The notes under the pieces: generated by a model
What the model was told of the DNA's origin: nothing
The model's database searches: none
The model's input: only the letters and a program-made list of their open reading frames with translations
Made by a program: the position numbers and the translations under genes
Source of the DNA: Candidatus Atabeyarchaeum deiterrae
Lineage (GTDB): Archaea > Asgardarchaeota > Atabeyarchaeia > Atabeyarchaeales > Atabeyarchaeaceae
Direction: 5' to 3'
Assembly: GCA_037310415.1 (NCBI GenBank)
Contig: CP147780.1
Location: forward strand, 2,464,001-2,528,000
Length of the DNA: 64,000 nucleotides
Shown: piece by piece, positions 2,514 through 57,251 of the stretch
How positions within the stretch are numbered: position 1 is the first letter of the stretch
How the letters are laid out: each line of letters starts with the position of its first letter

Positions 2514-3677
2514 TTGACCGTGATACTTCCGAAGCGAAATGATAGTTATTGGGAGAGAAGGAGATTGCGTGTACTATGGTTCAACTGGCGATCTTGGGTT
2601 CATCCATTAGCTGGAGGCGCCGAGGTACAAATCAGGGAAATCGCTAGGCGGTGGGTTAAGTGGGGTCATGATGTTACAGTTTTCTCCGGAGGATACAAGG
2701 GTGGAAGAGAACACGAAGTACTCGAAGGCGTTGAGACTATAAGAAAAGGCAGCCAATTCACAGTTTATATGTACGCAGCCTGGAACTATATGCGACACTT
2801 GAAAAAGAGTGACTATGATGTGATTGTTGACGACATCAATGGCATTCCCTTCTTTACTCCGCTCTACGTTAGAAGTCCCAAGATGGCAATAGTACATCAC
2901 TTGGTCAAAGACATTTTCTTTAGAGAACTATCTTGGGGGAAAGCGCTGATAGGCTACATGTCTGAAAAAATGATTCCATTTGTCTATCGCAAAACACCGA
3001 TTGCTGTAGACTCGGAGAGTACCAAGAGCGATCTTCTAGCCATCGGAATGCATGAAGGGAAGATACGCGTTATGCACAACGGAGTTGATCAAGAAGTCTA
3101 CAGGCCCAAGCCGAGCGCCAAGAGCCCTCACCCCAACGTGATCTGCCTGGGGAGAGTCATGAAATACAAGAACCTGGATCATTTGTTACTGTCATTCAAG
3201 AGCATATTGGATCAATCGAAAGGAAAGGATTTGAAGGGCATCAGACTGACGATAGCTGGAAAGGGTTCTTACAAAGAACTAGAGAAATTGGCTGAGAGAC
3301 TCAAGATTTCGTCTAACGTAGACTTACTGGGAGAAGTAACTGAAAAAAAGAAAGTGAAGCTGCTGCAAAACGCCTGGGTCTATGTGACGACATCAATGCG
3401 GGAAGGATGGGGTCTGACCGCAGTGGAAGCGATGGCTTGCGGAACGCCTGTTGTATGTTATGATGTCGAAGGACTAAGGAATGCCGTGAAGCATATGAAG
3501 ACTGGTATCCTTGTCCCCGCAGGAGACATCGACGCACTAAGCAAAGCAATAGTACGTTTGCTCAAGGACGACCAGCTCCGTGCAAAACTCGCCAAGAACG
3601 CATCAGAGTGGTCGACAAAACAGAGTTGGGACATAACTGCTCGGGAACTCATGGACATAGCAAGATGCGCTTGCTAG
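2514..3677 (+). CDS. GT4 glycosyltransferase
   Basis: NWR..HPLAGGAE N-terminus and EGWGLTAVEAMACGTPVV (EX7E). Confidence 0.92.
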   Translation: MTVILPKRNDSYWERRRLRVLWFNWRSWVHPLAGGAEVQIREIARRWVKWGHDVTVFSGGYKGGREHEVLEGVETIRKGSQFTVYMYAAWNYMRHLKKSDYDVIVDDINGIPFFTPLYVRSPKMAIVHHLVKDIFFRELSWGKALIGYMSEKMIPFVYRKTPIAVDSESTKSDLLAIGMHEGKIRVMHNGVDQEVYRPKPSAKSPHPNVICLGRVMKYKNLDHLLLSFKSILDQSKGKDLKGIRLTIAGKGSYKELEKLAERLKISSNVDLLGEVTEKKKVKLLQNAWVYVTTSMREGWGLTAVEAMACGTPVVCYDVEGLRNAVKHMKTGILVPAGDIDALSKAIVRLLKDDQLRAKLAKNASEWSTKQSWDITARELMDIARCAC

Positions 3678-3715
3678 ACGAAATGCTTTGCACTCTTCGT
3701 TGGAGTTGACTTGAG

Positions 3716-4756
3716 TTGAGCGACAAGAAAAGAGCCACGCCGACGGTGTCCATAATCATAGTCAATTTCAACGGTCTAAAACATCTGAACAAGTGTCTCT
3801 CTTCAGTCTTGAAAACTGAATATTCCAATTTTGAAATAGTACTCGTCGACAACGGTTCATCGGACGGGAGCGTAGACTACGTCAAGAAGAACTTTGCCGT
3901 CGAACGATTGAAGCTCATTGAGCTACCGCAAAATAGGGGTTTCGCTGAGGGTAACAATTCTGGAGTCAAGAAGGCCAGGGGAAAGTACATCGTGTTACTC
4001 AACAATGATACTGAGGTCGATTCGGAATGGCTAACCCCTCTCGTCAACACCATGGAGTCCGATGCTGGCATAGGCGCTGCGCAACCCAAAATACTTCTAA
4101 TGAATCGACGAAATAGATTTGATTCAGCTGGCAACTTCATAAACCTGATCGGCTCTTCGTACGCCCTGGGACTTCTGCAAGTTGACAAAGGACAGTTTGA
4201 TTCCACCAATGAGATCTTCTATGCAAAGGGCGCTGCAATGATAACGACAAAGACTCTTTGGGAAGAACTAGGTGGGTTGGATCCGATTCTGTTTCTTAGT
4301 TTCGAGGACACTGATTTCTGCTGGCGAATTTGGAGGCACGGCTACCGAGTGGTCTTCGTTCCTGCCTCGAGAATCTATCATGTAGGTTTTGCCTCAACTT
4401 CCAAGGTTCCCGAAATCAAGAGATTTCATGATACAAAGAATCGCCTCATGATTCTATTGAAGAATCTTGATGCAAAGCAGTTGGCTCTATACTCTCCCTT
4501 GATAATCTCTTCATTCATGGTGGAGTTTCTTCTATCTTGGCTCAGGCGCGATGGTGAAGCAAGGCCTATCCTCAAAGGAATGGGTTGGGTCGTTCTTCAT
4601 TTTAGGAAAGTCTGGTCTCGCCGAGTAATAGCTCGTTCACAATCAGAAATATCTAGCAACGACATAATGAAGAAGTTCCTAAAGGCGATGCCATTCCTCA
4701 AGAGAGTTGAAACGCGCACAATGTACAAAACCCTTAAACTTGGAGGAATAATCTGA
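3716..4756 (+). CDS. GT2 glycosyltransferase (rhamnosyltransferase-like)
   Basis: SIIIVNFNG, VDNGSSDGS, GFAEGNN, LLNND, EDTDFCWR. Confidence 0.92.
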   Translation: MSDKKRATPTVSIIIVNFNGLKHLNKCLSSVLKTEYSNFEIVLVDNGSSDGSVDYVKKNFAVERLKLIELPQNRGFAEGNNSGVKKARGKYIVLLNNDTEVDSEWLTPLVNTMESDAGIGAAQPKILLMNRRNRFDSAGNFINLIGSSYALGLLQVDKGQFDSTNEIFYAKGAAMITTKTLWEELGGLDPILFLSFEDTDFCWRIWRHGYRVVFVPASRIYHVGFASTSKVPEIKRFHDTKNRLMILLKNLDAKQLALYSPLIISSFMVEFLLSWLRRDGEARPILKGMGWVVLHFRKVWSRRVIARSQSEISSNDIMKKFLKAMPFLKRVETRTMYKTLKLGGII

Positions 4757-54292: not shown

Positions 54293-55438
54293 TCACACGT
54301 GGTCAAGTGTAATCTGGGTCGACGATCTTGCTGTAGCGTAAAGAATCTTCTTGTCATATGGGAACTGTAAAGCAAGTTGAGACTTTCCGCAGGGAGGATT
54401 CTTTGAGTTCGGGCAACTTCTAACACAATCAGCGTTGCATATTGGTTTGAATTTCCCTTCTTTAGTTCTTATCATCATGTAAGAGTTGGGCGAGCCTTCA
54501 CAATGTGAGAGTTGAGAAGAGTCGAATGATCTTTCAAGCTCCATGCAGACAGCATAGGTCATGCCGAGTCTTTCAGTCTCTGCCTTGAGTCGTTTGTGGA
54601 ATCGTTCACGTTTCTCTCGGGGAACTCTCAGCCATCCATTCTCGCGAGCGTAGCTTTCCTTGATTTGCAGGTATGATTTGTCCATTCCTTCTCTCAGCAG
54701 TCGATCCTTCACTGCTTGAAGCCCTAATGAATCAAATCTTGTTGTACTTGTAATGATATGCTTGACACCAATTCTCTTTGCGATTTGCAGAAGTTGAGTT
54801 AGCTCGTTGTGGTCATTACTGTATCCGAATATTATCGGGTCGATCCGCATCACCGTGTAGAAGCCTCGTGCCGCAAAGAGTCGTAGCGTTTCGATTCTCT
54901 CTTTTATGGGCGAGGAGTATGGAGATAGTACTCTTCTTTTTTCGTCATCGATTGTTTCCACGGACATCTGAAGGAAGAAGTACGGGTAATTTGTGAATCC
55001 TGGGATCTCGAGGAGCCTCTTAACCTGCATATTCTTTGTGATGATGTGAAATGAGACGCCAAACCTCATTATTGTTCTAACGGCTTTCATAGTTGATTGA
55101 ATTATATCCTCAACTGGCTGGAACACGTCCGTCGTAGCACAGAGGTAAAGTGGAGGACAAAGTACTATTTCGGAAAGCTCGTTTTCAAGTTTGTCGGGGA
55201 TATTATCGTAATAGGTGACTTCCCCAGTTTCCTCAGGATGAGCGCTCCACTTGTATCCTCTCGCATAGCAGTATGCACATAAATGTGTACATTGCCCAGG
55301 TGGCGTAAGATTGACCAGGCCCATGTGGGGGCACTTTCTGTTGGGCAGTTGATAAGTGAAATCGTGTATCAATCTGCCTTTTAGGCTTAGCGGCACAGCT
55401 TCAAACATGTGTCTGACTTTCACCACAGGGAAACTCAT
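54293..55438 (-). CDS. Radical SAM protein, spore-photoproduct-lyase-like family
   Basis: CTHLCAYCYA (CxxxCxxC), TTDVFQPVE, ITK, RIDPII, and an extra C-terminal Cys cluster. Start placed at ATG 55438. Confidence 0.85.
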   Translation of the reverse strand: MSFPVVKVRHMFEAVPLSLKGRLIHDFTYQLPNRKCPHMGLVNLTPPGQCTHLCAYCYARGYKWSAHPEETGEVTYYDNIPDKLENELSEIVLCPPLYLCATTDVFQPVEDIIQSTMKAVRTIMRFGVSFHIITKNMQVKRLLEIPGFTNYPYFFLQMSVETIDDEKRRVLSPYSSPIKERIETLRLFAARGFYTVMRIDPIIFGYSNDHNELTQLLQIAKRIGVKHIITSTTRFDSLGLQAVKDRLLREGMDKSYLQIKESYARENGWLRVPREKRERFHKRLKAETERLGMTYAVCMELERSFDSSQLSHCEGSPNSYMMIRTKEGKFKPICNADCVRSCPNSKNPPCGKSQLALQFPYDKKILYATARSSTQITLDHV

Positions 55439-55549
55439 AGTGAAGCATATTAATCCCTTTGCGTATAGTCTGATTGTTGTTTTTTGGACAACAGACATAG
55501 GAAACAAGAGCTGGAATCGTGTTGTCTGGCCAAGGAGGGAATGTGCATA

Positions 55550-55777
55550 TTGAAGCGCGTGGTTATTGAGAAGTTGGGGCCAGAGGGTCACACAACGCTT
55601 GAAACTGATTTTGACGCGGCACTAGTCCTGTTGACCGATGAGATGGCTCGTGGATATCTTATTTTCAGTAGAGATACCCAGCAACGCGTAGCGAAGCAAG
55701 AGGATTTGGAGTCGCTAAAGGATCGTGTGGAAGACTCCATTAGAGTCATGGTCATACCACCTGTGGCTGGTGGGTAG
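55550..55777 (+). CDS. Small ubiquitin-like (beta-grasp?) protein with C-terminal di-glycine
   Basis: 75 aa ending VMVIPPVAGG-stop. GGAGGG upstream (start TTG 55550 or ATG 55541). Its stop codon overlaps the next start (TAGTG). Confidence 0.75.
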   Translation: MKRVVIEKLGPEGHTTLETDFDAALVLLTDEMARGYLIFSRDTQQRVAKQEDLESLKDRVEDSIRVMVIPPVAGG

Positions 55778-56613
55778 TGGTGACGGAGAACCTCATGCGC
55801 AATCAGAACATTGAAGTGGAAAAAAGAGCTCTGGCTCTCCTCAAAAGGATTTTGGAGGAGAACAGGCAGTCATTCAGATTGGAAGATGGCGCACTCAACG
55901 TAACGGCGCAGAATGGCGTTAAATACTCCATAGATACGAAGTCAGCCAGAGTCTACGACGACTCTGGCAAGTTCATATGTCTGAGAGTGTTGAGCCCAAG
56001 GTTGCCCGTCATTGACCAAGTCATAGCCAAGTCTCTCTACCTGTTGACTAATCCTCGACCGTCAATCGGCATTGATCATGACATGTTGTTCAAAGTTGCC
56101 TTCTTGGGATCCGACCCCGAAATTGAATGGCCTTGGATAAAATCAATCTCCCTCGCCACCCTTGGGGACGATTTTTCGAGTCTAATCGGAGTTGATTTTG
56201 CCGTCAAAAGAATTGAGACAATGGATCATGTGATAAAACTGCAGATGTGGTATTTGAACTGCGTCAATAGATTCAAGTCGGTGGGTGCAAGGTACATTCA
56301 TGGTGCGATGGGAGGAGTCGTACTGTGGAATGCAAGTGAAGATCCTGGTAAGATCGTTGATTTGCAGAGAAGCATTAATGATTTCTATTTCTGCAACGAA
56401 AGAAGCATGCCAACAATAATCATTGGATTGTGCGACGATACGAATGGCTGCAATGGAGATGAAAGGGCGCTGGAGGCTGGGGAAGATATCGCCAGGCGCA
56501 ATAACATACCTTTCTTTAAATGTGAACTCGGTCATCCTTCAACGACCGAAGCCCCTCTCAAATACTTAGCGAACATAATTATCAAGATGACCAACGTTTG
56601 CGCCTCAGGATGA
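55777..56613 (+). CDS. Fusion of an uncharacterised Cys-containing N-domain and a degenerate Rab-like small GTPase
   Basis: Rab-family motifs IGVDF, KLQMW, RFKSV and YIHGA are retained, while the G1/G3/G4/G5 nucleotide motifs are absent. N-domain ALALL...NGVKYSI...FICL...LP..D.VIAK.L.L. Confidence 0.75.
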   Translation: MVTENLMRNQNIEVEKRALALLKRILEENRQSFRLEDGALNVTAQNGVKYSIDTKSARVYDDSGKFICLRVLSPRLPVIDQVIAKSLYLLTNPRPSIGIDHDMLFKVAFLGSDPEIEWPWIKSISLATLGDDFSSLIGVDFAVKRIETMDHVIKLQMWYLNCVNRFKSVGARYIHGAMGGVVLWNASEDPGKIVDLQRSINDFYFCNERSMPTIIIGLCDDTNGCNGDERALEAGEDIARRNNIPFFKCELGHPSTTEAPLKYLANIIIKMTNVCASG

Positions 56614-56684
56614 TGATCTCTCTCTAGTCATTGAGCAAGTGCTTGGAGATTCCTTCTTTTTCATCAAGTGTGCGGGGAATTAGG

Positions 56685-57251
56685 ATGACACAAGAAGTAC
56701 TACTAGTCTCTACTAGTGGTTTGCCCAAAAGCGAAGCGCGACATGCCATCAAAGTTCTTGAGGAAAAACTCGGTCAGATCTTTTCGTTCAGGTCAAGCCA
56801 TGCAGGTGTCTTGCCTCTTGGTGCGTACGACAACAAAAGGAGGCAGTACGCCGCAGAAGCTTTTCTATCAATTGCAGAAGACATCAGAGTGAAAGAGAAG
56901 TGCGTTGCATCACTTGTGCTCACAGAAGTTGATATATTCGCCGCATCCACAAACTATGTCTTCGGGCTAGCTGACCTAGAGAGAGGCGTTGCTGTTGTGT
57001 CAAGTCACAGGATACATCCTTCTTTCTGGGGGATTGTGGAGCGTAGAGATTTCTTTGAGACTCAGTGGGGGAAAGTGGTGACTCATGAATTCGGGCATAC
57101 AGTTGGATTAATACACTGTCAAGATTGGAGTTGCGTTATGAAGTTCAGTAACTCGCCATCAGAGCTCTATGCGAAGGGAACGGGCTTCTGCAAGAAATGT
57201 GGAATAGAGCTGCAAGAAGTAGTCACAAAACTAGTAGAACAGAGACGATAA
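56685..57251 (+). CDS. amzA: Archaemetzincin zinc metalloprotease
   Basis: AYD..RRQY.A, NYVFGLA, HEFGHTVGLIHC...CVM.FS...FCKKC. Start at ATG 56685 (ORF track 56631). Confidence 0.92.
   Translation: MTQEVLLVSTSGLPKSEARHAIKVLEEKLGQIFSFRSSHAGVLPLGAYDNKRRQYAAEAFLSIAEDIRVKEKCVASLVLTEVDIFAASTNYVFGLADLERGVAVVSSHRIHPSFWGIVERRDFFETQWGKVVTHEFGHTVGLIHCQDWSCVMKFSNSPSELYAKGTGFCKKCGIELQEVVTKLVEQRR

What the first reader, a model, noticed from the sequence alone, without database searches (positions are those of the whole stretch)
55541..57251. Candidate undescribed modifier system: di-Gly ubiquitin-like protein, Cys-domain/Rab pseudo-GTPase fusion and archaemetzincin
Seen: three co-oriented genes. The first encodes a ~75-aa protein ending PPVAGG, with a free C-terminal GG needing no processing. 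Its TAG overlaps the GTG of the second, a ~95-aa unknown domain with a single Cys (FICL...LP..D.VIAK.L.L) fused to a Rab-like domain. A metzincin protease follows. Established: C-terminal GG marks ubiquitin/SAMP/ThiS/MoaD modifiers, and conjugation operons often pair a modifier, a Cys thioester carrier and a protease. The N-terminus (KRVVIEKLGPEGHTTL) does not resemble MoaD, ThiS or SAMP. From unverified recollection, similar small 'GHT...P..GG' proteins lie beside similar Cys-domain proteins in other archaea and viruses. Inference: a non-canonical Ubl plus partner (E2-like carrier or receptor), here grafted onto a Rab scaffold, with the protease as possible deconjugase. No E1 is present in the window.
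Basis: partly seen in the sequence, partly recalled or inferred. Interest (0 to 1): 0.88.

Follow-up and report, generated by a model that had tools for sequence, protein, structure and literature searches.

The report
Asgard ubiquitin-like protein with cysteine-domain partner
A small ubiquitin-fold protein ending in Gly-Gly and the gene beside it, which has one invariant cysteine, form a conserved and unannotated gene pair in Asgard archaea; it may be a minimal ubiquitin-like conjugation module, and here it is fused to a dead Rab GTPase.

Summary
Gene 1 (55541-55777) encodes a 78-aa beta-grasp protein ending PPVAGG. Gene 2 follows with no spacer: a ~98-aa domain with one invariant Cys, fused to a Rab-like domain that has lost all nucleotide-binding motifs. 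An archaemetzincin gene follows.

The first two genes form a conserved cassette. The Ubl lies beside the Cys-domain gene in 15 of 16 distinct Asgard-type loci (database labels: Njord-, Hermod-, Hel-, Hod-, Heimdallarchaeota). It also does so in three of four sequenced loci of a more distant subfamily, once in reversed order. GG is invariant in about 30 Ubls. The Cys is invariant in 110 domain homologues. A complex prediction passes its controls (ipSAE 0.73, best control 0.00) and puts the GG tail along the Cys strand.

Best reading: an undescribed Ubl plus E2-like carrier pair. The thioester step is inferred.

The parts
55534..55538 (+). GGAGG ribosome-binding-site-like motif, 2 nt before the ATG of the Ubl gene
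   Evidence: Read directly from the sequence.
55541..55777 (+). Ubl gene: 78-aa divergent beta-grasp protein ending PPVAGG-stop, with a conserved K-L-G-x-x-G-H loop near the N-terminus
55777..56613 (+). Fusion gene (278 aa; probable start GTG 55780): N-terminal Cys domain plus C-terminal Rab-like pseudo-GTPase
   Evidence: 14 full-length homologues at 44-78% identity, all with the same architecture.
55777..56070 (+). Cys domain (aa 1-98): helix, five short strands, Cys68, conserved L-P-x-x-D-x-x-I-A-K helix. Unannotated family.
55978..55980 (+). Codon of Cys68, the only Cys of the domain and the only invariant column across 110 homologues
   Evidence: It lies in the predicted interface with the Ubl tail.
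56077..56610 (+). Rab-like pseudo-GTPase domain (aa ~101-278): Rab-family core kept, G1/G3/G4/G5 motifs replaced
   Evidence: PF00071 matches from profile position 27. Alignment to Sec4 shows DTAGQ, NKxD and SAK replaced. The replacements are conserved in the family.
56685..57251 (+). Archaemetzincin (amzA, peptidase M54) with intact HExxHxxGxxH. A neighbour, probably not a dedicated component. A T-rich tract lies in the 71-nt spacer before it.
   Evidence: Adjacency only within the window's family. Single copy and widespread.
54293..55549 (-). Divergently transcribed radical-SAM gene. Syntenic with the cassette within the family only; listed as context.

Best explanation
Genes 1 and 2 form a conserved two-gene module of Asgard and some other uncultured archaea. 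Gene 1 is a divergent MoaD/SAMP-like beta-grasp modifier with a ready-made GG end. Gene 2 carries a small alpha/beta domain with one invariant Cys.

Proposed mechanism:
1. The two proteins form a complex. The modifier's C-terminal tail lies along the strand that bears the Cys and against the conserved helix after it. This step is predicted.
2. The modifier is adenylated in trans by one of the genome's two ThiF-type E1 enzymes. This step is inferred.
3. The modifier is passed as a thioester to the Cys, which acts as a minimal E2-like carrier lacking the HPN motif and the C-terminal helices. This step is inferred and not shown.
4. The modifier is then conjugated to targets.

In the window's lineage the carrier has been fused to a Rab-like domain that can no longer bind nucleotide. 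That domain probably serves as a docking or targeting module. The neighbouring archaemetzincin is a housekeeping gene kept nearby by family-level synteny, not a demonstrated component.
For: Fold and family of the modifier:
- Beta-grasp model.
- The tail region is related to ThiS/MoaD.
- GG is invariant in all homologues seen. Three Hermod-type ones carry a short extension after GG, as precursor modifiers do.

Linkage of the two genes:
- The Ubl is adjacent to the Cys-domain gene in 15 of 16 distinct Asgard-type loci with enough flanking DNA.
- In a distant subfamily it is adjacent in L030, L101 and L103. In L101 the order is reversed.
- Stop and start codons abut or overlap.

The Cys:
- Invariant in 17, 110 and 155 aligned domains.

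Binding:
- Complex prediction gives ipSAE 0.73 against a best control of 0.00. That mark was reached by 58 of 80 solved complexes and 2 of 110 mismatched pairs. The runs agree in at least 89% of contacts, and partner pLDDT is at least 83.
- The interface includes residues 67-73 (with Cys68) and 75-88 of the domain, and 70-78 plus 12-17 of the Ubl.
- Conserved columns are enriched in that interface: 7 of 9 (P 0.002) and 5 of 6 (P 0.005).

Fold of the Cys domain:
- The VIA list for the model is dominated by RWD, UEV, eukaryotic E2s, bacterial E2s (8tyz_C, 9eav_D) and UFC1.

E1 availability:
- E1s are available in trans in every cassette genome tested.
Against: - hhalign of the domain family against 30 Asgard E2s gives 0.7% probability.
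- There is no HPN motif.
- The invariant Cys and the same conserved surface persist in relatives with no adjacent Ubl. These are L029, L031, L084, L085 and L102, plus proteins of two large phages. The Cys may therefore have a role independent of a Ubl.
- No E1, E3 or JAB gene is linked in any locus.
- Archaeal SAMP conjugation is known to need no E2 (established knowledge).
- No expression or biochemical data exist.
Confidence: 0.45

Rival explanations
1. Non-covalent modifier-receptor pair. The Cys domain is a UEV/RWD-like, non-catalytic binder or chaperone that holds the Ubl and masks or presents its tail. Conjugation, if any, is done by the E1 alone, as for haloarchaeal SAMPs. The Cys is structural or a redox sensor.
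For: The top structural matches are the non-catalytic RWD and UEV domains. There is no HPN and no E2 profile similarity. The predicted interface is large, with about 75 contacts, typical of a stable heterodimer. The Cys is kept in Ubl-less relatives. E1-only SAMPylation is established knowledge.
Against: A structural Cys is rarely the single invariant column in 110 divergent sequences. It sits in the interface next to the GG tail. RWD and UEV domains have no such Cys.
Confidence: 0.22
2. Sulfur-relay pair. The Ubl is a thiocarboxylate sulfur carrier of the MoaD/ThiS/TtuB/CysO type, and the Cys domain is its persulfide donor or sulfur acceptor.
For: The Ubl tail and last strand are MoaD/ThiS-like. 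The one E1 outside the ubiquitin operon lies beside NifU and a flavoprotein. Predicted insertion of the tail into the partner resembles MoaD-MoaE. Some sulfur carriers also have post-GG extensions (recollection).
Against: The partner is about 95 aa, with no resemblance to MoaE, ThiG, rhodanese or TusA. No cofactor or thiolation enzyme is linked in any locus. The genome already has five ordinary ThiS/MoaD proteins. The distribution is sporadic (10 of 400 Asgard genomes), which is unlike a core biosynthetic pathway.
Confidence: 0.13
3. Three-gene system. The archaemetzincin is the dedicated processing or deconjugating protease of this modifier.
For: The order Ubl - Cys/Rab fusion - amzA is kept in all four loci of the window's family, at about 50-57% protein identity. 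The catalytic motif is intact. The physiological substrates of archaemetzincins are unknown (established knowledge).
Against: No cassette outside this family has an M54 neighbour. amzA is single-copy here and present in 16 of 21 relatives, including genomes without the cassette. The lineage whose Ubls need processing (Hermod type) has no amzA beside them. A 71-nt spacer with a T-rich tract separates the genes.
Confidence: 0.1
4. The Cys domain is a general peptide-tail or partner-binding domain of viral or mobile-element origin, with a function unrelated to ubiquitin-like chemistry. Asgard archaea merely recruited a beta-grasp ligand for it.
For: Relatives occur at the C-termini of unrelated proteins on virus-like contigs and in two large phages. 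Atlas structural neighbours are viral hypothetical proteins (TM 0.69-0.79) and DUF4132 proteins. The distribution is sporadic, with tandem duplications and variable N-terminal extensions.
Against: It does not explain the strict GG end of the partner or the post-GG extensions. No Asgard-type member was found in the viral contig collection. In the window the neighbours are ordinary cellular genes.
Confidence: 0.1

Closest known systems
Archaeal SAMP/UbaA system (Haloferax volcanii SAMP1-3, MoaD/ThiS-type modifiers)
   Same: A small beta-grasp protein with a MoaD-like last strand and free GG. The E1 is encoded elsewhere and serves several modifiers. The organism is an archaeon.
   Different: SAMPs match ThiS/MoaD models; this protein does not. 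SAMPylation has no E2-like partner, whereas here a Cys-domain gene is tightly coupled.
Caldiarchaeum/Asgard ubiquitin operon (RING - ubiquitin - E2 - E1, Rpn11)
   Same: A ubiquitin-fold modifier next to a Cys-bearing alpha/beta carrier candidate. The Ubl model's best Foldseek hit is Caldiarchaeum ubiquitin.
   Different: This genome has that canonical operon separately at G000:C1:347.6-350 kb. The cassette here has no E1, RING or JAB gene. Its modifier misses Pfam ubiquitin and its partner misses UQ_con.
Bacterial Ubl-E2-E1 defence operons (Bil/Bub type, PDB 8tyz and 9eav; CBASS Cap2)
   Different: Those operons always encode their own E1 and usually a JAB peptidase. There is no PADLOC match here and no linked E1.
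MoaD-MoaE (molybdopterin synthase) and other sulfur-carrier/enzyme pairs
   Same: The GG tail of a MoaD-like protein is predicted to insert against its partner. The tail sequence is of MoaD type.
   Different: The partner is a 95-aa domain unrelated to MoaE. No molybdopterin or thiamine genes are linked.
UEV/RWD domains (Tsg101/Vps23, GCN2 RWD)
   Different: Those domains lack a catalytic Cys, whereas here the Cys is the only invariant residue. No sequence similarity was found.
Rab-family small GTPases (Sec4, Ypt1, Rab1/8/10; Thorarchaeota Rab 7ezb)
   Same: The C-terminal domain aligns over about 140-170 residues to Rabs (E down to 7e-11).
   Different: All nucleotide-binding motifs are replaced, so it is a pseudo-GTPase. 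Fusion to this Cys domain was seen only in the window's family.

Membership tests
ThiS/MoaD/SAMP beta-grasp modifiers | Beta-grasp fold | tested here: met
ThiS/MoaD/SAMP beta-grasp modifiers | C-terminal Gly-Gly | tested here: met
   GG is invariant in all roughly 30 homologues. Three carry a short extension after it.
ThiS/MoaD/SAMP beta-grasp modifiers | Match to the family profile above its curated cut-off | tested here: not met
   PF02597 gave no hit for P0001, and 1 of 11 relatives hit at E 0.16. TIGR01682 scored 18.6 bits against a cut-off of 66. hhalign similarity is limited to the last 29 columns.
ThiS/MoaD/SAMP beta-grasp modifiers | Activation by a ThiF-type E1 (acyl-adenylate) | not testable with these tools
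   E1 genes exist in trans.
Ubiquitin family (PF00240) | Profile match | tested here: not met
   No PF00240 hit, whereas the genome's true ubiquitin hits it at 1e-11.
UBC/E2 superfamily (including RWD and UEV) | Fold of N-terminal helix, four-stranded meander and crossover helix | tested here: inconclusive
UBC/E2 superfamily (including RWD and UEV) | Conserved catalytic Cys between the sheet and the crossover helix | tested here: inconclusive
   Cys68 is invariant and lies about 10 residues before helix 78-91. Residue-level equivalence to an E2 Cys could not be checked.
UBC/E2 superfamily (including RWD and UEV) | HPN motif upstream of the Cys | tested here: not met
   The alignment shows K-V-Y-x-x-x-G-K-F at that place and no H-P-N. 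Some non-canonical E2s also lack it (recollection).
UBC/E2 superfamily (including RWD and UEV) | Sequence-profile relatedness to E2s | tested here: not met
   No UQ_con or Prok-E2 hit. hhalign against 30 Asgard E2s gives probability 0.7%.
UBC/E2 superfamily (including RWD and UEV) | Thioester with the modifier | not testable with these tools
   Only a predicted non-covalent complex is available.
Rab/Ras small GTPases | Family profile and fold | tested here: met
   PF00071 at 29.5 bits, above the 21.6 cut-off. 150 PDB Rab/Ras chains match at E<=1e-3.
Rab/Ras small GTPases | G1 P-loop, G3 DxxG, G4 NKxD and G5 SAK motifs | tested here: not met
   All four are replaced, and the replacements are conserved in 14 homologues. 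It is therefore a pseudo-GTPase, not an active member.
Archaemetzincin (peptidase M54) | Profile match and HExxHxxGxxH zinc site | tested here: met
   PF07998 at 66.8 bits, above the 24.4 cut-off. NF033823 at 139.1 bits is just under its 145 cut-off. The motif is present in the translation.

The most novel reading that the evidence does not exclude
The Cys domain founds a previously unrecognised family of minimal E2-like thioester carriers dedicated to a MoaD-derived modifier. That would be an archaeal intermediate between E1-only SAMP-type tagging and E1-E2 ubiquitin-type tagging. In the window's lineage it is welded to a nucleotide-dead Rab, so that ubiquitin-like tagging is aimed through a Rab-effector surface. 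Relatives of the same Cys domain in large phages would then be viral tools that act on, or mimic, such tagging.
Probability: 0.3. Interest if true: 0.88.

Novelty: new variant of a known kind. Interest (0 to 1): 0.72.

Why it matters
Asgard archaea are the closest known relatives of eukaryotes. How E1-only sulfur-carrier and SAMP systems became E1-E2-E3 ubiquitin cascades is an open question.

This cassette offers a testable candidate for a second, independent modifier-carrier pair. It sits in the same genomes that already hold a canonical ubiquitin operon. The modifier has a MoaD-type tail, and its carrier has no detectable sequence link to known E2s.

The lineage-specific fusion to a Rab pseudo-GTPase would be an unusual coupling of ubiquitin-like chemistry to the small-GTPase world in an archaeon.

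Both families are annotated only as hypothetical proteins and are absent from Pfam, NCBIfam, PHROGs and PADLOC. Even the conservative result, a new obligate Ubl-binding domain, fills an annotation gap. That gap extends to large phages.

Tried and rejected
- Foldseek of the Cys-domain model against the PDB found no match at E<=0.001. BFVD gave only a weak hit to what is probably the Rctr197k phage relative.
- The PDB sequence search with the domain profile returned only artefacts: designed 'Cake' and 'Scone' propellers matching a 20-residue hairpin repeatedly. Multi-stretch propeller proteins were excluded for the same reason.
- hhalign against Asgard E2s found no relation.
- Pfam, PHROGs and PADLOC on 110 family members gave nothing relevant.
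With A7, the viral contig collection gave none, and the metagenome and genome collections gave 6 and 4 loci.
- tblastn of P0137 against phages found no match.
- The feature search of the Atlas scored below 0.9, so it gives leads only.
- ThiF near the cassette was looked for in five genomes and not found.
- A conserved third gene was sought in 20-kb neighbourhoods of three genomes. Nothing was shared across lineages.
- The SWIM-finger idea for the Cys domain was considered from the pattern of strands plus helix. It was dropped because there was no Pfam SWIM hit and no zinc ligands.
- A CAAX-like end of the fusion protein was considered. It is not conserved in homologues.
- Expression: no RNA holder was listed for this stretch.
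- Literature searches found no description of this pair and nothing useful on DUF4132.
Full report
ORGANISM AND CONTEXT

The window is G000:C1:2464001-2528000 of a single 2,756,679-bp contig. That length equals one of the two complete Atabeyarchaeia genomes from wetland soil reported in bioRxiv 10.1101/2023.11.21.568159. The DNA holders found are wetland and freshwater-sediment metagenomes. Database relatives of the proteins are labelled Candidatus Njordarchaeota. Below I call this lineage 'the window's family' (f1 in the genome searches).

WHAT IS IN THE SEQUENCE

Three co-oriented ORFs lie at 55541-55777, 55777-56613 and 56631-57251.

- Gene 1 has GGAGG two bases before its ATG. It encodes 78 aa ending PPVAGG-TAG.
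- Gene 2 can start at the GTG that shares one base with that TAG. Homologues begin at the position of the next GTG (55780), so the two genes abut without a spacer. In two sister genomes the ORFs overlap.
- Gene 3 is an archaemetzincin with HExxHxxGxxH. Its likely ATG is at 56685, after a 71-nt spacer that holds a T-rich tract.
- A radical-SAM gene is transcribed divergently upstream.

THE SMALL PROTEIN

- With an 11-sequence alignment, AlphaFold2 gives a confident beta-grasp (pLDDT 87, strand-strand-helix-strand-strand-helix-strand).
- Foldseek's best PDB hits are Caldiarchaeum ubiquitin, SUMO, UBX and FAT10 (prob 0.95-1.0, E about 1e-2).
- At sequence level it misses Pfam ThiS and ubiquitin. 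It reaches TIGR01682 (moaD) only at E 0.0024 and 18.6 bits, against a cut-off of 66.
- The same genome has five proteins that pass the ThiS model.
- A profile-profile comparison with those five gives 87.5% probability, limited to the last 29 columns, that is the final strand and tail.
- So it is a divergent beta-grasp whose C-terminal third is of MoaD type and whose N-terminal two thirds are its own.
- In 5.8 billion proteins the family has only 25 clusters. All are 'hypothetical', labelled Njord-, Hel-, Hod- or Heimdallarchaeota, plus one probably mis-binned.
- Every member has GG. Three Hermod-type members continue for 6-11 residues after GG, as modifier precursors do.

THE PARTNER

The 278-aa protein has 14 full-length homologues at 44-78% identity, all in the window's family.

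- The C-terminal part matches Ras/Rab (PF00071 from profile position 27; best PDB hits Sec4, Rab10, Ypt1, Rab1 and a Thorarchaeota Rab).
- Its P-loop, DxxG, NKxD and SAK motifs are all replaced. The replacements are themselves conserved. It is a pseudo-GTPase under selection for something else.
- The N-terminal 98 aa carry one Cys, followed by a conserved L-P-x-x-D-x-x-I-A-K helix.

This domain is not confined to the fusion.

- In Hermod-, Hel- and Heimdall-labelled genomes it forms the C-terminus of stand-alone proteins of 129-270 aa, which usually end I-x-T-L.
- An exhaustive profile search finds 164 representative clusters at E<=1e-3.
- None of 110 members tested matches any Pfam, PHROG or PADLOC family in this region.
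- The Cys is the only invariant column. G47, Y50, P77 and D80 are nearly invariant.

FOLD OF THE CYS DOMAIN

- The model (pLDDT 82) is helix - five short strands - Cys - loop - helix.
- Foldseek finds nothing in the PDB.
- hhalign of the family against 30 Asgard UBC E2s gives no relation.
- The HPN motif is absent.
- Atlas neighbours are viral and archaeal hypothetical proteins (TM 0.69-0.79) and a part of DUF4132 proteins (TM 0.65).
- I therefore treat 'UBC/RWD-like' as a tentative fold assignment and 'E2' as a functional hypothesis, not a membership.

LINKAGE

- Scanning 400 Asgard genomes, the Ubl profile and the Cys-domain profile hit the same few genomes. About 10 of 400 are hit, in families f1, f9, f12, f15 and f17.
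- I searched every fetched locus in six frames with both profiles. In 15 of 16 distinct Asgard-type loci with enough flanking DNA, the Ubl lies immediately upstream of the Cys-domain gene. These are four of the window's family, two Hermod, four Hel, one Heimdall-labelled and four metagenomic.
- The exception is L031.
- Hermod loci carry two tandem partner genes. One contig, L021/L082, starts inside such a tandem pair.
- A more distant subfamily has partners of 171-461 aa. It keeps the pair in L030 and L103, and in reversed order in L101. It probably also keeps it beside P0148, where an 84-aa gene overlaps but no DNA was available. It does not keep it in L102.
- The most distant members have no Ubl beside them: L029, L085, a virus-like contig with two such proteins (L084), and proteins of two large phages.

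PREDICTED COMPLEX

- With both alignments, the complex test gave ipSAE 0.73 (three runs: 0.71-0.73) against 0.00 for all three controls.
- That mark was reached by 58 of 80 solved complexes and 2 of 110 mismatched pairs. Runs agree in at least 89% of contacts, and partner pLDDT is at least 83.
- The tool's caveat applies: my own alignments were used, and the score is the model's confidence, not a measurement.
- The interface joins Ubl residues 70-78 (last strand and GG tail) and 12-17 (the conserved G-x-x-G-H loop) to domain residues 67-73 (with Cys68), 75-88 (L-P-x-x-D and helix) and the N-terminal helix.
- Seven of the nine conserved columns of the domain fall in this interface (hypergeometric P 0.002). 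So do five of the six conserved columns of the Ubl (P 0.005).

WHAT IS NOT PART OF IT

- No ThiF gene lies near the cassette in five genomes.
- The window's genome has two E1s. One is inside a canonical RING-ubiquitin-E2-E1 operon at 347.6-350 kb. The other lies beside NifU and a flavoprotein at 2681 kb.
- No gene is shared by the neighbourhoods of different lineages.
- The archaemetzincin follows the cassette in all four loci of the window's family but in no other lineage.
- amzA is single-copy here and present in 16 of 21 relatives, including genomes without the cassette.

INTERPRETATION

Shown:
- A conserved, translationally coupled pair of a GG-ended beta-grasp protein and a Cys-bearing domain.
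- Both families are unannotated.
- The Rab part is nucleotide-dead.

Predicted: the two proteins bind, with the tail along the Cys strand.

Inferred: activation by an E1 in trans, and transfer to Cys68 as a thioester, giving a minimal E2-like carrier.

I put this reading at about 0.45. The main rivals are:
- a non-covalent UEV/RWD-like receptor (0.22);
- a sulfur relay (0.13);
- the three-gene version with amzA as dedicated protease (0.10);
- a general virus-derived binding domain unrelated to Ubl chemistry (0.10).

The strongest argument against the thioester reading is that the Cys and the same conserved surface persist where no Ubl is nearby.

NOVELTY

Literature searches found no description of this pair. 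An earlier first-stage note on the same stretch made the same proposal and is not independent. I class the finding as a new variant of a known kind (modifier plus carrier). It would become categorically new only if the Cys domain proves to have chemistry unlike any E2.

Noticed in passing
G000:C1:347600-350000 (outside the window; loci L037, L002): A canonical Asgard ubiquitin operon: an 86-aa RING protein, a 78-aa ubiquitin, a 157-aa UBC E2 and a 349-aa ThiF E1 with a C-terminal ubiquitin-like domain. A second UQ_con-like gene lies 3 kb upstream.
   Followed up: partly
L008:1492-1749 and L019:30-287; protein P0186: Hermod-type Ubls run on for 6-11 residues after GG, so they need processing. 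The same loci carry two tandem copies of the partner gene. P0023 carries two Cys domains in one protein.
   Followed up: partly
L101:2814-3356, L102:3073-3555, and the contig of P0148: In the distant 'R-D-x-P-E' subfamily, a dual-specificity phosphatase (DSPc) gene directly follows the cassette in three independent contigs.
   Followed up: no
L035:10014-10550 and L031:2650-2946: Small, very basic proteins with a C-P-x-C ... H-P-K-K-N-K motif follow the partner gene in a Helarchaeota genome and in an unrelated contig. They may be a further associated component.
   Followed up: no
L034:8238-9152 (-): In the Heimdall-labelled 4.9-Mb genome, the gene after the cassette encodes a membrane protein ending in a C-x2-C ... 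C-x2-C ... C-x2-C RING-like or zinc-ribbon module. It has no Pfam match. This was seen in that genome only.
   Followed up: partly
L084:722-1675 and 3162-4064; KX853510.1:116792-117598; LR756511.1:220786-221031: Ubl-less relatives of the Cys domain sit at the C-termini of unrelated proteins. They occur on a virus-like contig (twice) and in two large phages (197 kb and 595 kb).
   Followed up: partly
L001:44-1135: The NifU-like gene next to the second ThiF E1 contains a LAGLIDADG domain, probably an intein.
   Followed up: no
Stand-alone partners, e.g. P0027 residues 1-70 and L031:2098-2300: Stand-alone partners share a conserved N-terminal module of about 60 aa (W ... F-x-P-V ... G-D-x-L-Y ... 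F-Y ... L-K-x-I-S) with no Pfam match. In the window's family its place is taken by the C-terminal pseudo-Rab.
   Followed up: no
window:56640-56665: A T-rich tract lies in the spacer between the fusion gene and amzA. It could be an archaeal terminator, which would argue for a separate amzA transcript.
   Followed up: no
That study has metatranscriptomes that could show whether the cassette is expressed.
   Followed up: partly
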